DNA of 64,000 nt. It comes from an uncultured virus (IMG/VR IMGVR_UViG_3300021376_000011) (Duplodnaviria > Heunggongvirae > Uroviricota > Caudoviricetes). Positions 38,207 to 44,703 of this stretch are shown here, piece by piece. The number at the start of each line of letters is the position of its first letter. Positions within the stretch are counted from its first letter, which is position 1. Below the pieces are notes generated by a model. The model was not told the DNA's origin. It ran no database searches and worked only from the letters and a program-made list of their open reading frames with translations. Location: the IMG/VR virus record IMGVR_UViG_3300021376_000011; one strand, 5' to 3'. A program made the position numbers and the translations under genes.

Positions 38207-38292
38207 GCCGCTGTGTTGAAACAGGTAGACAAGAGAGACTTAAAATTTCTTGGACAGTAATGTCCGTGCCGGTTCGATTCCGGCCAGCGGTA
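38207..38292 (+). tRNA. tRNA-Leu(TAA)
   Basis: GCCGCTG/CAGCGGT acceptor, AGAGA-CTTAAAA-TTTCT anticodon arm, long variable arm, GGTTCGATTCC. Confidence 0.92.
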
Positions 38293-38356
38293 CAAAAATG
38301 GAAAACTCCTCAAATCTACAACTACGGTTATCGTAGAAGGAAATTTCCATTTTAAT

Positions 38357-38428
38357 GGGCCCATAGGTAAAGGGATATACCCTCTCACTTCTAATGAGAT
38401 ATTCCAAGTTCGAATCTTGGTGGGCCTA
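38357..38428 (+). tRNA. tRNA-Arg(TCT)
   Basis: GGGCCCA/TGGGCCT acceptor, TCTCA-CTTCTAA-TGAGA anticodon arm, CCAAG-TTCGAAT-CTTGG T-arm. Confidence 0.92.
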
Positions 38429-38590
38429 CGAATTTAAATGATGTCTCTTTCTATGACAATTTGAACATAAAAGAACACATTTATTAAGTTCATTTTTGAT
38501 TGATTCATCAGACTTCAATCTGAGTTTTGACCAATCAACATCTTTTTCAGAAGGATTTAAATGGTGAAAATCAAAAATGACATATGAACG
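38426..38590 (-). pseudogene. HNH endonuclease C-terminal remnant
   Basis: FDFHHLNPSEK...ELNKCVLLCSNCHRKRH; the first CxxC and the N-terminus are absent. Confidence 0.65.
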
Positions 38591-38755
38591 ATTGAACTTT
38601 TGTTCGTACAGATTGTGGTAATTGGACATGTCATATGAATCCCTCGGGACATAAAAAGGTGGCAAATGCTGTTATCACACAGATGAAATTCAAAGTAAAA
38701 AACTAATATCGCCGATTTAAACGATAATTCATTTTATCGGTTATTTCGACGATAC

Positions 38756-38829
38756 GGTCCCTTAGCTCAGTTGGTCAGAGCACCCGACTCATAATCGGTA
38801 GGTCCACGGTTCAAGCCCGTGAGGGACCA
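38756..38829 (+). tRNA. tRNA with CAT anticodon, probably tRNA-Ile2 (lysidine type)
   Basis: GGTCCCT/AGGGACC acceptor, CCGA-CTCATAA-TCGG anticodon arm; resembles ileX-type tRNAs and lacks initiator features. Confidence 0.85.
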
Positions 38830-38855
38830 CGAGATATTTATATAATAAAAAAATC

Positions 38856-39308
38856 ATGGGAATTGAATTAAAAAAGAAAAAACAACTTATCGAAAGATTA
38901 AACAAAAGACTCCTATCCGAAGCGGAAATGGAATGTCCTAAAGCAACTCAAGATTTAGAGTTAAATACCAATAATAGAGACAAGTCAATAAAAGCGGATT
39001 ATATAAAATATGGTCCACTTAATATTGACGAACCCGGTGATTATTGGGAAATGGTTGCATCTGATTGGAACACCACTGTTGAAGCTGCTAAAAAATCACT
39101 ATGTGGTAATTGTGTAGCATTTGATATATCACCAAGAATGGATGAGTGTATGCCAGGTTCGGTTTCTGATGATAGTGGTAGATTAGGGTACTGTTGGATG
39201 CATCACTTTAAATGTCACTCCGCAAGAACATGTAAAACATGGGCAAAAGGTGGTCCAATTACCGAAGATACGGTGTCCTATGAGTGGCAACAAAAAAATC
39301 AAAAATAA
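38856..39308 (+). CDS. Cys-rich hypothetical late protein
   Basis: LLSEA site, CGNCVAF, GYCWMHHFKCHSARTC; late motif at 38835. Confidence 0.65.
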   Translation: MGIELKKKKQLIERLNKRLLSEAEMECPKATQDLELNTNNRDKSIKADYIKYGPLNIDEPGDYWEMVASDWNTTVEAAKKSLCGNCVAFDISPRMDECMPGSVSDDSGRLGYCWMHHFKCHSARTCKTWAKGGPITEDTVSYEWQQKNQK

Positions 39309-39377
39309 TATCAACATGTGGTCGTACCCTTAACTCCAAAACCTATTAAGGAAATCGTTATGGGAAGACCACTCCAA

Positions 39378-39452
39378 GCGGGAGTAGCTCAGTGGTAGAG
39401 CATCGCCTTGCCAAGGCGAGGGCCGTGGGTTCAAATCCCATTTCCCGCTCCA
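39378..39452 (+). tRNA. tRNA-Gly(GCC), CCA encoded
   Basis: GCGGGAG/TTCCCGC acceptor, CGCC-TTGCCAA-GGCG anticodon arm, GGTTCAAATCC, TCCA end. Confidence 0.95.
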
Positions 39453-39697
39453 AGTAGACCTTAAAAAGGGCCCTTCCGTTGCGTACGAAAACGGCTTGTT
39501 GGGCCCGGGTCTACCTTTTAAGCGAATATCGTATAACCGACATTATCGGTTATATTAAAGACTACTTGGTAGTTATGTGTAATAATTTTCACCAACCCAC
39601 ATCAACCCCACAAAATTACTACACATAACAAGGTGTTACAGTCGCAAGGGTTCGAGCCCCTCACCTTCCGCGGAGTACTTATATATTATAAAATGGT

Positions 39698-40256: not shown

Positions 40257-42329
40257 ATGACAACAAGGAATTTAGTTGCGTTTCAAAAAGGTTTGGTCTG
40301 TTCACCAAACGACGGTCAAGATAATAGAATCGCGGTAGCAACCGTTCAATCCCACTTAATGCAATGGGGTTACATGTTAGACGAAGATGCTTTCTTCGCG
40401 TTGTCCAAATCAGAATTATCGTTTATTCAAAACTTCAATCATGAAGTATTGAATCATTTGAAAAATGTAATGGGTGGTAATCGTAATTACCAACCCCTAT
40501 ATAAGAATTTCCCACAAGAAGTGATGGTTATGTCCGACTTCGAATTATACATGAACGCAATCTTGCATTATTGGAGTAATGGTCAATGGGAACCATCAAC
40601 CCACACTTACGAAAAAGAAATCAAGTTTGAAAAAATTAAATACAACTTGATTAAGTATGGTACCTCTGATAGATTCTCAAAAATTTTCACTGACTTAGTG
40701 TCAATCAACACATCATTAACCCCCCAAGACCTTGAGATTGTTAAGTGGTTTGTATCAAGTGGTGAAACATTGATTTTCCCTGACACAATTCCTTTCAAAG
40801 AGAATTTGTGTACACTTGCGGGAATGGGAATCGAGGGACTTCCAGTAAAGACTTCAACCGACGTGTTAAGAATAGCCGTTCATCTTTCAGGTGGAGACAT
40901 TAGTTTACCTAAAGTTCCTGAAAAGGAAATTAGACTAAACAGATGGTCTACCGATAAAGGAGTAAATCCCGAAAGAGAAAAGTTTAAATTCAAGAAATTC
41001 ACTCGTAAAGAGAGGAAGTACATCTTGAATTTACTTGAGAACACAAACTGTGACCCAAGAGAAATGGTTTTAAGAGACCAACGATGGGTTCGTTTAGGTG
41101 AAATCTTACACCCGGGTGAGTATAAAAACCAATTCCCTAAATCTTTTGATGCGTTCAACAAGATTAGAAACGAGAAAGTAAAATCTTGGTTCTCCCTTGT
41201 AGATGAGGGATTCAAAAAAAGTTTGGAGAATGGTTTGAGAGTATTGTCTCAAAGACCCGGTGAATTCTCTCGTCGATTAGATTGGTTGGTTCGTACATAT
41301 CCACAAGATATTGAAACAATTATGAAATTATTCGGAGAAGCGGTAAAAGGTACATCAAACAAAGTATTGTTTGAGGTTTACACTCACTTTGAAGGTCGTA
41401 CTGAACCTAAAACAAATAGGTCAGTTATGATTAAAGGAGCGAGAAAACGTACCGAATTACCATCACTACAAGCAATCCCTAAAGAGATTGTGGAAACCAT
41501 CCACTCTAAATTATTCGAAACTCTTAGAGATAAGTTTTCGGTAATGGATTCTTTAGGTAACTGTTGGATTGATGAGGAATTAAAAAAGATTCCTTTACCA
41601 ACCAACATGAGAAGTATGAACTTCTCAACTAAACCTACCATCAGAGGTCAACGAGTTCCGCTCGATAACCCCGATGCAAAAGTTATCAGACCATTTATTC
41701 ATTGGATGGATAAACGTGGTTCTGAAGACTTGGATTTAAGTGTTACGTTTGTTGGTGAAAAAGTGTCAGAAGTACTATCTTTCAGTAACTTGAGAGTTGG
41801 TAACTCTGTTCACTCGGGGGACGTGAGACATAGACAGGGTCCTTGTGCGGAGTACATCGACATCGATATTCAAGATGGATTAAATCGTGGATTCAAGTAC
41901 GCGGTTATTGACGTAAGAAACTTCAATGGCGGTAGTTTAAGTTCACTTGAAACATCCTTTGGTATCATGGAGAGAGAACATCCTGAATCAAACACGACAT
42001 GGTTACCTGAGACAATTTCAAATTGTCAATCATTAGAATCTGAGTCGTCAAACACTTTGATTGCAATTATTGACTTAGAAACCAAAGAGTACATCATGTT
42101 GGACATTGATTCAAGTGGTTTTGTAACCGCGAGGAGCGACTTCAATAACACCTTTAAAGTAATTCAACAATACGCTGAATTACCAAAAGTAAGTGTTTAT
42201 GACCTTATTCTTCTACACGTAGAAGGTCGAGGAAAACAAGTTACCCTTGACGAGAATGTGGATACACATTTCAAGTACGAGGACTTCTGTTACTCTTATG
42301 AAGAGACAGGTAAATTGATGGGTGTCTAA
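40257..42329 (+). CDS. Large protein with C-terminal TerD-like domain (resembles the MXAN_6230/SCO0854-type family but lacks the RING)
   Basis: PLYKNFP, FKENL, TSTDVLR, RPGEFSRRLD, then W...DLDLS...HSGD...AEYIDID. Confidence 0.65.
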   Translation: MTTRNLVAFQKGLVCSPNDGQDNRIAVATVQSHLMQWGYMLDEDAFFALSKSELSFIQNFNHEVLNHLKNVMGGNRNYQPLYKNFPQEVMVMSDFELYMNAILHYWSNGQWEPSTHTYEKEIKFEKIKYNLIKYGTSDRFSKIFTDLVSINTSLTPQDLEIVKWFVSSGETLIFPDTIPFKENLCTLAGMGIEGLPVKTSTDVLRIAVHLSGGDISLPKVPEKEIRLNRWSTDKGVNPEREKFKFKKFTRKERKYILNLLENTNCDPREMVLRDQRWVRLGEILHPGEYKNQFPKSFDAFNKIRNEKVKSWFSLVDEGFKKSLENGLRVLSQRPGEFSRRLDWLVRTYPQDIETIMKLFGEAVKGTSNKVLFEVYTHFEGRTEPKTNRSVMIKGARKRTELPSLQAIPKEIVETIHSKLFETLRDKFSVMDSLGNCWIDEELKKIPLPTNMRSMNFSTKPTIRGQRVPLDNPDAKVIRPFIHWMDKRGSEDLDLSVTFVGEKVSEVLSFSNLRVGNSVHSGDVRHRQGPCAEYIDIDIQDGLNRGFKYAVIDVRNFNGGSLSSLETSFGIMEREHPESNTTWLPETISNCQSLESESSNTLIAIIDLETKEYIMLDIDSSGFVTARSDFNNTFKVIQQYAELPKVSVYDLILLHVEGRGKQVTLDENVDTHFKYEDFCYSYEETGKLMGV

Positions 42330-42357
42330 ACTCACCCATTAGTTCTTTGAAATATTA

Positions 42358-42776
42358 TATGTGGCTATGTGAGCCATTGAGAGGATAGTCAACTGACCAT
42401 CACATCAAACCACGGAGTGGTTCTGTTTTGGTCCTTAGCGGTGACAAAAGTATCAATGCAAACGTCTTACTTCTAACAAACAACTATCAGATACGAAAAC
42501 CAGACACACAATTTCCACATAACTTCTTAGACGGCTATGTATTGGGTTACTTCTGCTAGGGGACTAATGTCCCCCCTTCTATAACAATTATATGTTACAT
42601 TACCCGTACTTTTTCCGTCAATCATATTGAGTGGCTATCTATCAACTTACTTCTAAATTTTAAGCAAAAAATCAAAAATTAGTTGTAGTCTTTCCACTTT
42701 TAAAACACACATGGATATGTGTTCAGTTATTTCTACTTTGACCGATAATCAAAACAATTATTGACACAGTTTCCAT
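42358..42776 (+). ncRNA. Array of four related structured RNAs
   Basis: Each unit reads stem-GG-(C/A)TA-stem-TTA(C/T)TTCT-variable loop-stem-TTT-CC-stem, with compensatory changes; units at 42358-42521, 42530-42619, 42629-42699, 42711-42776. Confidence 0.75.
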
Positions 42777-42817
42777 TTTTTAAAAACAACAAAATAAATA
42801 ACATAAAAACAACAATT

Positions 42818-43264
42818 ATGGCAACAAAAACAACTGACCAGAAAGTAAAAGAACTATTCGATTTAGTTCAAAGTAAAAAATTAGCAATTGAAAAAGCTGA
42901 AAGACCTTGTTGGAAAACCAGCGGTAACTTTGGTTATTCAGCGAATTCCGCACATGACAGGACATCAATTCCAACTATCACAGATGTACGTAAAATCGTA
43001 GAGATGTACGCATTTCTGATGGAAAGAAAAGATAAATCCGAAACCGCAGCCAAAGAACTTGGCGTAAACTACAAATTCACATGGTTAGGATTTACTGTCG
43101 ATGAATGGAAAGATGATTTTCAAACAAGAGTAAATCAAATTTTAATTCAAGAAAAACGTAAAGAACTTTCTGAAATTGAATCTCGTTTGAATTCATTAAT
43201 TTCACCCGAGATAAGAGTACAAATGGAATTGGAAGCAATCACGGAGTTACTTAACGAAAAGTAA
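42818..43264 (+). CDS. Hypothetical coiled-coil protein
   Basis: MATKTTDQKVKEL...; ATG 42818 preferred because the 42761 start lies inside RNA unit 4. Confidence 0.7.
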   Translation: MATKTTDQKVKELFDLVQSKKLAIEKAERPCWKTSGNFGYSANSAHDRTSIPTITDVRKIVEMYAFLMERKDKSETAAKELGVNYKFTWLGFTVDEWKDDFQTRVNQILIQEKRKELSEIESRLNSLISPEIRVQMELEAITELLNEK

Positions 43265-44100: not shown

Positions 44101-44127
44101 CTATCTTTGTCTTGTTCTTTGACTTAT

Positions 44128-44703
44128 GGGGGTGTATGGAATTGATTGGCGTTGATATGGTAAATGGGCACGTAGTCGGATGTCATCTACGACTTTAATC
44201 CACGGTGGTAAATTTTAAACGGCAACGTTTATAACCAAATGGAAGTAGCAGGTCTTCTTGCGACTTCTAAAGTTGCAGCCTAATTGGTTGTAACTAACGG
44301 GTCGACGGACAGATAACCTTGGAACAGAAGTCCTTGTAGGGTGTGGTTTCTATCCTAAAAGAAACAAAGTGGAAGATTAGTTCTCAGTAAACCGAACCAC
44401 TTTAAAATAAGGGAATTGTGAATTTCGGAGTATTAGAAAATACTGTCCTAAACGTGTAGTCCATTTATTGTATTGCGAGCAAGACGCGGGTTTTTAATCG
44501 AGCCCCTTCATATCGTGAGATATGTCGAAAATCGGATGAACTCAGGGGAAGTCTTTTAGATAATCCTGAGCCAAGCCTGATAGGAACAGGAAGGTGCAGA
44601 GACTAGTGGGTGATAGACGCTTCTATCGTAATACCACATTAGCGTCCGACATCTCGTTGAGATGATGATATAGTCCAATAATTGTCGAAACCCGCCACCT
44701 CCA
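44128..44703 (+). ncRNA. ssrA: tmRNA, interrupted by a group I intron
   Basis: GGGGGTG/CACCTCC-A acceptor with G3:U70; tag ORF 44221-44283 GNVYNQMEVAGLLATSKVAA*; T-arm GCGGGT|TCGAAACCCGC restored by removing 44492-44684. Confidence 0.9.
44492..44684 (+). mobile_element. Group I intron without an ORF (IC3-like core) in the tmRNA T-loop
   Basis: Core elements AATCCTGAGCCAAG, AAGGTGCAGAGACT and GATATAGTCC; exon ends in U, intron ends in G; IGS GCCC pairs the exon GGGU and intron TCGA can pair the 3' exon TCGA. Confidence 0.88.

What the first reader, a model, noticed from the sequence alone, without database searches (positions are those of the whole stretch)
40257..42776. Candidate new ribonucleoprotein system: a TerD-like protein followed by four scaffold-conserved, loop-variable RNAs
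Seen in sequence: the gap after the 690-aa gene holds a boxA-like GTTCTTTGAAA (42342) and then four tandem units with one architecture. Outer stems are TATGTGG/CCACATA, GACGG/CCGTC, GAGTGG/CCACTT and ATGG/CCAT. Each is followed by a conserved internal loop, (C/A)TA opposite TTT, and by inner stems (TGTG..GTC/GAC.CACA, GTA..GGG/CCC.TAC, CTA.CAACT/AGTTG.TAG, TGTG.TCAGT/ATTGA.CACA). A conserved unpaired TTA(C/T)TTCT sits at 42467, 42547, 42647 and 42727, followed by an unrelated loop of roughly 20-50 nt. The stem sequences differ while pairing is kept, which is covariation within one locus. Inference: these are processed small RNAs that share a protein-binding handle and carry interchangeable cargo, and the adjacent protein is the likely partner. 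The logic resembles Ro60/Y RNA, but this protein is not a TROVE protein and the repeats are not CRISPR repeats. I do not recognise a described RNA family for it.
Basis: partly seen in the sequence, partly recalled or inferred. Interest (0 to 1): 0.9.

Follow-up and report, generated by a model that had tools for sequence, protein, structure and literature searches.

The report
New RNA partner of TerD-like protein

Summary
The gap 42330-42817 holds four units with one architecture. An outer stem ends in GG/CC, then comes a CUA: UUU internal loop, an inner stem, and an unpaired UUA(C/U)UUCU followed by a variable module.

- **Structure:** covariance models and covariation support the fold. About 96% of cells pair, against 36-55% when partners are slid.
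- **Linkage in phages:** the same RNA lies beside homologues of the 690-aa protein in 23 of 23 related viral contigs and in 8 of 9 distant phages.
- **Linkage in bacteria:** it lies beside the homologue in 53 of 80 chromosomal loci from many phyla. In 242 sampled genomes, 11 have the RNA and all 11 have the protein. One further genome has only a protein fragment and no RNA.
- **Databases:** Rfam 15 has no family for it.
- **Protein:** it has a true TerD-like domain (hhalign 96.8%) and no TROVE domain.
- **Modules elsewhere:** some units carry a YrlA-type tRNA-like head or sit inside a tRNA gene.

My best reading is a Y-RNA-like modular particle built from unrelated parts. Binding and function are inferred, not shown. 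The "boxA" label is not supported.

The parts
40257..42329 (+). Gene of the 690-aa partner protein. The N-terminal ~455 aa belong to no known family. A TerD-like domain covers about residues 460-578.
   Evidence: ORF. No Pfam hit. phrog_33734, function unknown. NCBIfam NF041916 at 237 bits, below its 600-bit cut-off. hhalign to a TerD alignment 96.8%, E 2.3e-10. 2410 representative clusters at E<=0.001.
42342..42350 (+). GTTCTTTGA box, 8 nt before unit 1. The same 9-mer precedes the tRNA cluster (38180) and the tmRNA-like gene (44114). It is probably a promoter or processing signal for the phage's stable-RNA genes.
   Evidence: It recurs before units in related loci. The function is inferred.
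42358..42521 (+). Unit 1: the handle with a ~90-nt structured insert at the inner-stem bulge. UUACUUCU lies at 42467.
   Evidence: Fold. R1 gives 15.4 bits over the core. 13 orthologues show 18 of 33 pairs with compensatory changes. RNA-library contigs run 42180 to 42494/42527/42529.
42530..42619 (+). Unit 2: the handle plus a 47-nt module holding two hairpins. UUACUUCU lies at 42547.
   Evidence: R1 47.4 bits, E 4.5e-10. R2 26.7 bits.
42629..42699 (+). Unit 3: a minimal unit. UUACUUCU lies at 42647.
   Evidence: R1 73.1 bits. R2, built from bacterial sequences only, gives 48.5 bits.
42711..42776 (+). Unit 4: a minimal unit with UUAUUUCU at 42727. Its module is a 5-bp hairpin (UUUGA/UCAAA) with a 7-nt loop.
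   Evidence: R1 52.4 bits. Module fold.

Best explanation
The four units are genes for small structured RNAs of one family that no database files. This family is the dedicated RNA partner of the ~700-aa TerD-domain protein encoded next to it.

**Anatomy.** Each RNA has a constant handle: an outer stem closed by two G-C pairs, a pyrimidine-rich internal loop (CUA opposite UUU), an inner stem of about 9 bp, and an unpaired UACUUCU tract (UCCUUCU in bacteria). Each also has a variable module, placed after that tract or at the inner-stem bulge.

**Proposed mechanism (inferred).** The protein docks on the handle. The module then brings in, mimics or occludes another RNA or protein, as Y RNAs do for Ro60. 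Bacteria keep one or two minimal RNAs. Phages expand them into arrays with different modules, among them YrlA-type tRNA-like heads and whole tRNAs.

**Likely field of action.** tRNA and stable-RNA surveillance or repair during infection or stress.

**Shown versus inferred.** Shown: the RNA fold, its conservation and its strict linkage to the protein. Inferred: binding, processing and function.
For: **Structure**
- 24 phage units: 11 of 13 predicted pairs have compensatory changes.
- 57 hits: 95.8% of cells pair against 36-48% when partners are slid; covariation score 0.82 against 0.07-0.19.
- 63 bacterial hits: 96.7% against 48-55%; 0.85 against 0.07-0.16.

**Linkage to the protein**
- All 82 R1 hits in 18 related loci lie on the gene's strand, downstream of the homologue.
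- 8 of 9 distant phages (21-31% protein identity; hosts include Actinobacteria, Alpha- and Gammaproteobacteria and Lactobacillus) have units beside the gene.
- 53 of 80 bacterial loci have a hit at E<=0.05: 41 upstream, 13 downstream, 1 of them both.
- 121 genomes of one order: the RNA is in 4 and the protein in the same 4, adjacent each time.
- 121 genomes of another phylum: the RNA is in 7, and all 7 have the protein.

**Specificity control**
- 80 viral loci (492 kb) chosen only for containing the sequence pattern gave R1 hits in 2 loci. One of these has the homologue next door.

**A free-standing RNA rather than a leader**
- It has its own -10-like box, and an intrinsic terminator stands between RNA and gene (L231, L216, L163).
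- An orphan pair of units lies with no homologue in the ~3 kb of contig on either side, in a genome that has the gene elsewhere.

**Y-RNA-like modularity**
- The handle carries the YrlA tRNA-like part (Rfam RF02553 positions 23-86, below threshold) in RpAliso, Weasels2 and two Lachnospiraceae genomes. In one of those two (L186) RtcB lies just upstream.
- 0 of 5 complete phage genomes with the module encode TROVE.

**Transcription**
- Contigs from RNA libraries of four runs cover the gene's 3' part and unit 1.
Against: - No experiment or model shows that the protein binds the RNA.
- Strict co-occurrence would also follow if the RNA regulated the gene, or if it were an antidote to the protein.
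- In the window the gap folds no better than 5 of 100 shuffles.
- RNA-library contigs cannot show ends, strand or level, and may contain DNA. Cover of units 2-4 is thin: one contig at depth 4 in one run.
- One distant phage homologue (Salicola SCTP-2) has no unit nearby.
- 27 of 80 bacterial loci gave no hit at E<=0.05 with a model trained on phage units.
- Bacterial gene neighbours are not conserved, so they say little about function.
- The alignments used for the pair counts were fitted to the model, which favours pairing.
Confidence: 0.55

Rival explanations
1. An RNA antidote or regulator of a conflict system. The RNA binds and holds the protein inactive, in the logic of a type III toxin-antitoxin pair. 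Phages carry expanded arrays to control their own copy or to neutralise a host copy.
For: - The two-gene module is patchy: present in 4 of 121 and 7-8 of 121 genomes.
- It has no conserved neighbours.
- It occurs in both phages and bacteria.
- The RNA is mostly upstream of the gene, sometimes with a terminator between them.
- Occasional neighbours are conflict genes: HEPN AbiU2, Fic, transposase.
Against: - The units are not near-identical repeats. Only 13 of 89 alignment columns are invariant.
- Bacteria mostly have a single unit: 46 of 53 loci.
- The RNA lies downstream of the gene in 13 of 53 loci.
- The protein has 690 aa and matches nothing in PADLOC. No nuclease or toxin family appears in Pfam.
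- tRNA-like modules and tRNA-embedded units are not expected of an antitoxin.
Confidence: 0.15
2. A cis-acting regulatory element of the protein's own mRNA, that is, a leader or trailer bound by the protein or by a ligand.
For: - Strict co-occurrence and same-strand adjacency. The nearest upstream unit lies 8-330 nt from the gene in 36 of 41 upstream loci.
- The pyrimidine tract could pair with a purine-rich ribosome-binding site (my inference, not tested).
- RNA-library contigs bridge the gene's 3' end and unit 1.
Against: - Units lie downstream of the gene in 13 of 53 loci.
- Intrinsic terminators and -10-like boxes flank the RNA.
- An orphan pair lies far from any homologue.
- Phages have arrays of 3-7 units with unrelated modules.
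- Some units are fused to tRNA-like heads or embedded in tRNAs.
Confidence: 0.1
3. An intron-like or processing cassette. The handle marks RNA to be cut out, and perhaps circularised, by the protein or by host enzymes. The tRNA-embedded copies are unusual tRNA introns.
For: - In 9 of 18 related loci the Rfam tRNA model spans a 123-137-nt gene that holds a permuted handle.
- In the four types I read by eye, the insert ends at UUACUUCU plus 0-3 nt, just before an intact-looking 7-nt anticodon loop.
- One RNA-library contig joins 42527 back to 42359 (table 5c).
- RtcB lies next to the module in one bacterial genome.
Against: - Free-standing units have no exons.
- The back-joint is a single contig at depth 6 in 1 of 4 runs. 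It could be an assembly cycle or a tandem variant.
- L018 also has an uninterrupted tRNA-Asn, so splicing is not needed there.
- No nuclease motif was found in the protein.
Confidence: 0.08
4. Chance hairpins or plain terminators in an AT-rich gap.
For: The thermodynamic z-score of the gap is only -1.6.
Against: Covariation, conservation across phyla and exact co-occurrence with the protein all argue against it.
Confidence: 0.01

Closest known systems
Ro60 (Rsr) with Y RNAs, especially YrlA (Rfam RF02553; Chen et al. 2014, PMC4201824: abstract and searched passages read)
   Same: - One or several small RNA genes lie next to the protein gene.
- The RNA is modular: a constant protein-side stem plus a variable module.
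- The module can be a circularly permuted tRNA-like head (T arm, sealed acceptor, D arm).
- It occurs patchily in bacteria and in phages.
- RtcB lies next door in one case.
   Different: - The protein has no TROVE domain and carries a TerD-like domain instead.
- The handle differs: a CUA/UUU loop and a UU(A/C)CUUCU tract, not the Ro60-binding helix.
- The Y_RNA and YrlA models do not reach threshold on any unit.
- Two of the five genomes I checked have both systems.
- Some handles are embedded in full tRNAs.
Type III toxin-antitoxin systems such as ToxIN (recalled from general knowledge; no paper read here)
   Same: A protein gene with a cognate structured RNA encoded beside it on the same strand, sometimes with a terminator between them. 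Patchy, mobile distribution. Phage-borne copies.
   Different: The units are not near-identical repeats, and bacteria mostly have a single copy. The protein is about four times larger and matches no defence or toxin family. The RNA may lie downstream of the gene.
TerD family proteins (PF02342) and NCBIfam NF041916 (MXAN_6230/SCO0854 family RING-domain protein)
   Same: - The C-terminal region aligns to TerD with the acidic metal-site motifs in register.
- NF041916 matches at E 5e-70 over profile positions 385-766.
   Different: - The window protein has no Pfam TerD hit, even at E<=1 on the domain alone.
- NF041916 scores 237 bits against a 600-bit cut-off. Its best stretch covers only profile positions 385-766 of 842, and I found no match to a RING domain.
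- No RNA partner was mentioned for TerD in the passages I read (PMC7824862, PMC7159879: searched passages only).
tRNA genes with inserted elements, such as group I introns or archaeal bulge-helix-bulge introns (recalled)
   Same: In related contigs a ~55-65-nt insert interrupts the anticodon arm of an otherwise canonical tRNA.
   Different: - By my own reading of the sequences, the insert lies 5' of the anticodon loop or inside the 5' strand of the anticodon stem.
- Because the insert is a circularly permuted copy of this handle, no group I or bulge-helix-bulge structure is apparent.
- Splicing was not shown.

Membership tests
Ro60/Y RNA particle | The partner protein has a TROVE domain (PF05731) | tested here: not met
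   - No Pfam hit at E<=0.1 on the protein.
- No TROVE hit at E<=0.01 in any of 68 relatives.
- None in the 134-kb virus record.
- hhalign against a 2-sequence TROVE alignment gives 0.9% probability.
- 0 of 5 complete phage genomes with the module have TROVE.
Ro60/Y RNA particle | The RNA matches Y_RNA or YrlA, including the Ro60-binding stem | tested here: not met
   - No Rfam hit on the window units at E<=10.
- Elsewhere only YrlA model positions 23-86 (the tRNA-like head) match, at 26-42 bits against a gathering score of 69.
Ro60/Y RNA particle | Modular RNA genes encoded beside the protein gene | tested here: met
   This shows a likeness of design, not membership.
TerD domain family (PF02342) | Match to the TerD profile | tested here: inconclusive
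   - Pfam gives none for the window protein.
- 2 of 68 relatives match at E 3e-4.
- Profile-profile comparison gives 96.8% probability, E 2.3e-10, over 121 columns.
- I read this as a divergent TerD-like domain.
NCBIfam NF041916 (RING_SCO0854 equivalog) | Score above the curated cut-off, with the RING region present | tested here: not met
   237 bits against a 600-bit cut-off. The best stretch covers profile positions 385-766 of 842.
Type III toxin-antitoxin | Tandem near-identical RNA repeats before a small endoribonuclease toxin | tested here: not met
   - Units share 13 invariant columns of 89.
- The protein has 690 aa and no PADLOC or Pfam toxin hit.
- Toxicity cannot be tested with these tools.
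CRISPR array | Identical direct repeats separated by unique spacers | tested here: not met
   Stem sequences differ between units while pairing is kept. I did not run a repeat finder.
Any Rfam 15 family | Match at or near the gathering score | tested here: not met
   - Window at gathering thresholds and at E<=10 over the gap.
- 8 phage loci and 9 bacterial loci at E<=1.
- No family falls on the handle in any of these.
tRNA (RF00005), for the embedded units of relatives | tRNA model above the gathering score across the insert | tested here: met
   9 of 18 related loci score 32-56 bits over 123-137 nt. The window itself has no embedded unit.

The most novel reading that the evidence does not exclude
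A second Y-RNA-type ribonucleoprotein system, independent of Ro60, is spread through many bacterial phyla and their phages. A TerD-domain protein reads a universal handle: GG-CUA ... UU(A/C)CUUCU ... UUU-CC. Phages graft this handle onto arbitrary RNA modules, including complete tRNAs, and so tag chosen RNAs for this protein during infection.
Probability: 0.4. Interest if true: 0.92.

Novelty: categorically new. Interest (0 to 1): 0.86.

Why it matters
**Scale.** If the pairing is physical, this adds a new and widespread RNA-protein particle to bacterial and phage biology.
- The protein family has 2410 representative clusters at 50% identity.
- The RNA has one of the cleanest covariation signals one could ask for, yet it is absent from Rfam 15.

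**What it would explain.**
- It gives a partner to the "handle-less" YrlA-type tRNA mimics seen in phage tRNA islands that lack Ro60.
- It gives the TerD fold a possible link to RNA, something the passages I read do not mention.

**Why it is testable.** The module is present in cultivable, harmless bacteria (Priestia megaterium, Brevibacillus), so the question can be addressed directly with genetics and pull-downs.

**What the phage arrays show.** One handle is combined with hairpins, a 90-nt domain, tRNA-like heads and whole tRNAs. That is a natural example of modular RNA scaffolding.

**On the novelty label.** A cautious reader could call this a new variant of the Y-RNA kind of particle. I rate it categorically new because neither the RNA handle nor the protein is related to the Ro60 system, and the likeness is one of design only.

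Tried and rejected
**Structure prediction**
No fold or fold search of the protein was therefore possible.

**Sequence and database searches with no useful result**
- PDB profile search: no relative at E<=1 beyond chance-level eL31 rows.
- ESM Atlas: only automatic "TerD family" names, and nothing for residues 1-455.
- blastn of the gene and of the gap against 50,697 phage records: no match.
- The search for related loci with the full alignment A1 failed for lack of a conserved stretch. Three single distant proteins then found nothing in viral contigs.
- Search for longer, fused forms of the protein: none. The tool calls this weak evidence.

**A scan that was mostly chance**
- The pattern scan GGCTATN{7,12}TTACTTCT returned mostly chance matches: only 2 of 80 loci were real. 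I used it only as a specificity control.

**Ideas considered and not adopted**
- *The short module hairpins mimic anticodon stem-loops.* Of the 16 seven-base loops, seven are T-loop-like. Only a handful of the rest have U at position 2 and a purine at position 6. I dropped this as a general claim.
- *The pyrimidine tract pairs with SRP RNA or mimics the 16S 3' end.* This rests on recalled sequences only and was not tested, so I do not use it.
- *boxA.* Rejected; see the observation check.

**RNA-library data**
- Parts of the stretch without cover, and depth differences between genes, are not used as evidence.

**Literature**
- Six full-text searches found nothing on this RNA-protein pair.
- Burroughs and Aravind 2016 (NAR 44:8525) is not held. 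It may bear on the protein family.
- Earlier findings of this scan: nothing on this genome or protein.
Full report
**1. What is in the window**

The window is part of a large phage. The nearest held virus record is 134 kb and is estimated 43% complete.

- The 690-aa ORF lies at 40257-42329.
- Upstream is a cluster of four tRNA genes at 38207-39452.
- Downstream are a 148-aa gene of unknown function, a metallophosphoesterase gene and a tmRNA-like gene that carries a group I intron.
TTA(C/T)TTCT lies at 42467, 42547, 42647 and 42727. The four outer stems are as quoted. A minimum-energy fold resolves four separate domains.
- The fold energy of the gap is not unusual: z = -1.6. Everything that follows therefore rests on comparison with other sequences.

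**2. The RNA is real**

Twenty-three related viral contigs that include DNA downstream of the homologue (67-100% protein identity) all carry 3-7 such units directly after the gene.

*Phage units.* An alignment of 24 short units, 2 from this window and 22 from 7 related loci, gives one consensus:
- P1 of 5 or more bp, ending in two invariant G-C pairs;
- an internal loop, CUAU opposite (A)AUUU;
- P2a of 3 bp, then a bulge on the 5' side, then P2b of 5 bp, whose last pair is the first U of the 8-mer with a conserved A;
- then UACUUCU and the variable module.

Eleven of the 13 pairs show compensatory changes. On 57 model hits, 95.8% of cells pair, against 36-48% when partners are slid. The covariation score is 0.82 against 0.07-0.19. 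These alignments are fitted to the model, which favours pairing, but the margin is large.

*Unit 1.* It scores poorly (15 bits) because it carries a ~90-nt insert at the bulge. In 13 orthologues that insert is itself a conserved hairpin domain, with 18 of 33 pairs showing compensatory changes.

*Specificity.* There are no further copies in the window or the 134-kb record. In 492 kb of unrelated viral DNA chosen only for containing the sequence pattern, just 2 of 80 loci gave hits.

**3. The RNA travels with the protein far beyond this phage**

*Distant phages.* tblastn finds the protein in 9 distinct phage genomes at 21-31% identity. In 8 of them the units lie next to the gene on its strand, upstream or downstream:
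- a human-gut phage contig;
- Xanthomonas phages XacN1 and Xoo-sp13;
- Ruegeria phage RpAliso;
- Rhodobacter phage RcXuper;
- Rhodococcus phage Weasels2;
- an uncultured 485-kb phage;
- Lactobacillus phage LpeD.

The core tract varies only between UUACUUC, UUCCUUCU, AUACUUCU and AUCCUUCU. Salicola phage SCTP-2 has none.

*Bacterial loci.* A 12-sequence alignment of the protein finds 312 encoding stretches in bacterial genomes of many phyla, and 80 were fetched.
- The phage-trained model hits 53 of these 80 loci at E<=0.05: 41 upstream of the gene, 13 just downstream, and 1 of them both. All 63 hits at that threshold are on the gene's strand.
- At the looser E<=1, 73 of 74 hits are on the gene's strand.
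- The bacterial consensus is very sharp: NNNGG-CUAU-(8-9 bp)-C-UUCCUUCU-A ... YUAG-(8-9 bp)-CUUU-CCNNN. 96.7% of cells pair, and 11 of 14 pairs show compensatory changes.

*Genome samples.* A model built from the bacterial hits (R2) and the protein alignment were run over two samples.
- In 121 genomes of one order, the RNA is in 4 and the protein is in the same 4. They lie 10-422 nt apart on one strand.
- In 121 genomes of another phylum, the RNA is in 7 and the protein in 8. The extra genome has only a 219-aa TerD-part frame.
- Together: 11 genomes have both, 0 have the RNA alone, 1 has a protein fragment alone, and 230 have neither.

**4. An independent RNA gene, not a leader**

- In bacteria the RNA can have its own -10-like box at the right distance, with an intrinsic terminator between RNA and gene (L231, L216, L163).
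- It lies downstream of the gene in 13 loci.
- One genome has a second pair of units with no homologue in the ~3 kb of contig on either side.
- In the window, GTTCTTTGA lies 8 nt before unit 1. The same 9-mer also precedes the tRNA cluster and the tmRNA-like gene. It therefore looks like a signal for the phage's stable-RNA genes rather than boxA.
- Contigs of four riverine RNA libraries (90-99% identical relatives) cover the 3' part of the gene and run through unit 1, ending at 42494-42529. One contig at depth 4 covers units 3-4. Contigs cannot prove transcription, ends or levels.

**5. The protein**

- Pfam gives no hit for the protein. PHROGs places it in phrog_33734, of unknown function. 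PADLOC gives nothing.
- NCBIfam NF041916 (MXAN_6230/SCO0854 RING-domain family) matches at E 5e-70, far below its cut-off. The best stretch covers only profile positions 385-766.
Pfam TerD hits only 2 of 68 relatives and not the window protein. However, a profile-profile comparison with ten TerD domains gives 96.8% probability over residues 460-578, with the DxDxS, SGD and E-IDID motifs aligned.
- TROVE is absent by Pfam and by hhalign (0.9%). Two of the five genomes checked have both a TROVE protein and this family.
- The N-terminal 455 aa match nothing.
- I could not fold the protein; see Tried and rejected.

**6. Why I read it as a Y-RNA-like particle**

The handle is combined with very different modules:
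- 20-30-nt loops with a small hairpin;
- a 90-nt domain (unit 1);
- a T arm plus hairpin;
- in RpAliso, RcXuper, Weasels2 and two Lachnospiraceae genomes, a full permuted tRNA-like head (T arm, sealed acceptor, D arm). Rfam's YrlA model recognises this head below threshold in RpAliso, Weasels2 and one of the Lachnospiraceae genomes (positions 23-86 only).

In the Lachnospiraceae locus L186 the order is RtcB, short RNA, protein, tRNA-like RNA. This recalls the Salmonella rsr-yrlBA-rtcBA operon; that operon name is recalled, and PMC7790460 was seen only in a search listing.

In 9 of 18 related contigs the last unit sits inside a tRNA gene. The Rfam tRNA model spans 123-137 nt. The handle is circularly permuted: P1 is capped by a loop, and the tRNA body takes the place of the module. 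By my reading of four types, the insert ends 0-3 nt after UUACUUCU, right before a normal-looking 7-nt anticodon loop. Whether it is removed is unknown.

Distant phages keep the gene among tRNAs, tmRNA and CCA-adding enzymes. Bacterial neighbours are not conserved, with scattered RNA enzymes among 101 nearest ORFs: RtcB, a Thg1-like enzyme, an RNB nuclease and an AAA_33 kinase.

**7. Mechanism and odds**

| Status | Statement |
|---|---|
| Shown | The fold, its conservation and its linkage to the protein |
| Inferred | The protein docks on the handle. The two pyrimidine-rich single-stranded elements lie about one helical turn apart, and many arginines are invariant. The module recruits, mimics or gates another RNA or protein |

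I put 0.55 on this reading. The rivals are an RNA antidote of a conflict system (0.15), a cis regulator (0.10), an intron-like processing cassette (0.08) and chance (0.01). The rest is unassigned.

**8. Novelty**

- Rfam 15 has no family for the handle.
- Six full-text searches found no paper on the pair.
- Iyer et al. 2021 (PMC7824862, passages read) mention stand-alone TerD genes in actinobacterial jumbo phages as parts of the Ter system, with no link to RNA.
- Burroughs and Aravind 2016 could not be read.
- Earlier notes of this scan describe "handle-less" YrlA-type mimics in other phages. Those may carry this handle, but I did not test them.

Noticed in passing
window 44125-44700: A tmRNA-like gene whose 3' part is interrupted by a group I intron. 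Rfam places the intron at 44482-44694 with 68.8 bits. ARAGORN and Rfam call tmRNA at the matching place in relatives (for example L012 7248-7667), with a tag peptide ending ...NMEVAGLLATSKVAA, but not in the window. RNA-library contigs break at 44492 and continue with letters that resemble the sequence just after the intron. That would fit splicing.
   Followed up: partly
window 42359-42527 (unit 1): One RNA-library contig (run X3, depth 6) joins 42527 back to 42359 with ATTA between. This could be a circular form of unit 1, a tandem variant or an assembly cycle. Contigs of three other runs end at 42494-42529.
   Followed up: no
window 38293-38350: A hairpin between tRNA-Leu and tRNA-Arg has an AAATGG / CCATTT outer stem and AATTT before CC, like the 3' half of the handle. 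It lacks CUAU and the UUACUUCU tract, and the models do not detect it.
   Followed up: partly
window 39450-39690: The non-coding stretch after tRNA-Gly contains a T-arm-like GGGTTCGAGCCCC and long complementary segments. It may be another tRNA-like RNA. Neither ARAGORN nor Rfam calls it.
   Followed up: no
L006, L007, L008, L009, L010, L011, L012, L015, L017, L018, L023 (end of each array): tRNA genes are interrupted in the anticodon arm by a circularly permuted copy of the handle. By eye the anticodon loops read GUU, UUG, UGC and GUA. L018 also has an uninterrupted tRNA-Asn. L006 and L007 were read by eye only and do not reach the Rfam tRNA gathering score.
   Followed up: partly
window 42727-42760 and orthologues in L004, L005, L006, L014, L018: The module of unit 4 is a hairpin with a constant stem (UUUGA/UCAAA) and a 7-nt loop. 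The middle three bases of the loop differ between close relatives: GAU, GAU, UCA, AUU, CGA, ACA.
   Followed up: no
L017 4490-5140 and L020 5070-5720: An extra ORF is inserted between the homologue and its RNA array. Its N-terminal sequence looks like a GIY-YIG homing endonuclease. That motif is recalled and was not scanned.
   Followed up: no
L015 7272-7670; L005 22-84: A GOLLD RNA (315.7 bits) and a freshwater-1 RNA (73.8 bits) lie in the same RNA islands of related phages.
   Followed up: no
G224:C8:80848-80990 (L235 3349-3491): An orphan pair of units (GGCCAU variant of the handle) has no homologue of the protein in the ~3 kb of contig on either side. The genome has the gene with three more units on another contig.
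   Followed up: partly
window 42818-43261: The 148-aa gene right after the array (phrog_2574, function unknown) keeps this position in the related contigs I read, but not in the distant phages. It may or may not belong to the module.
   Followed up: no
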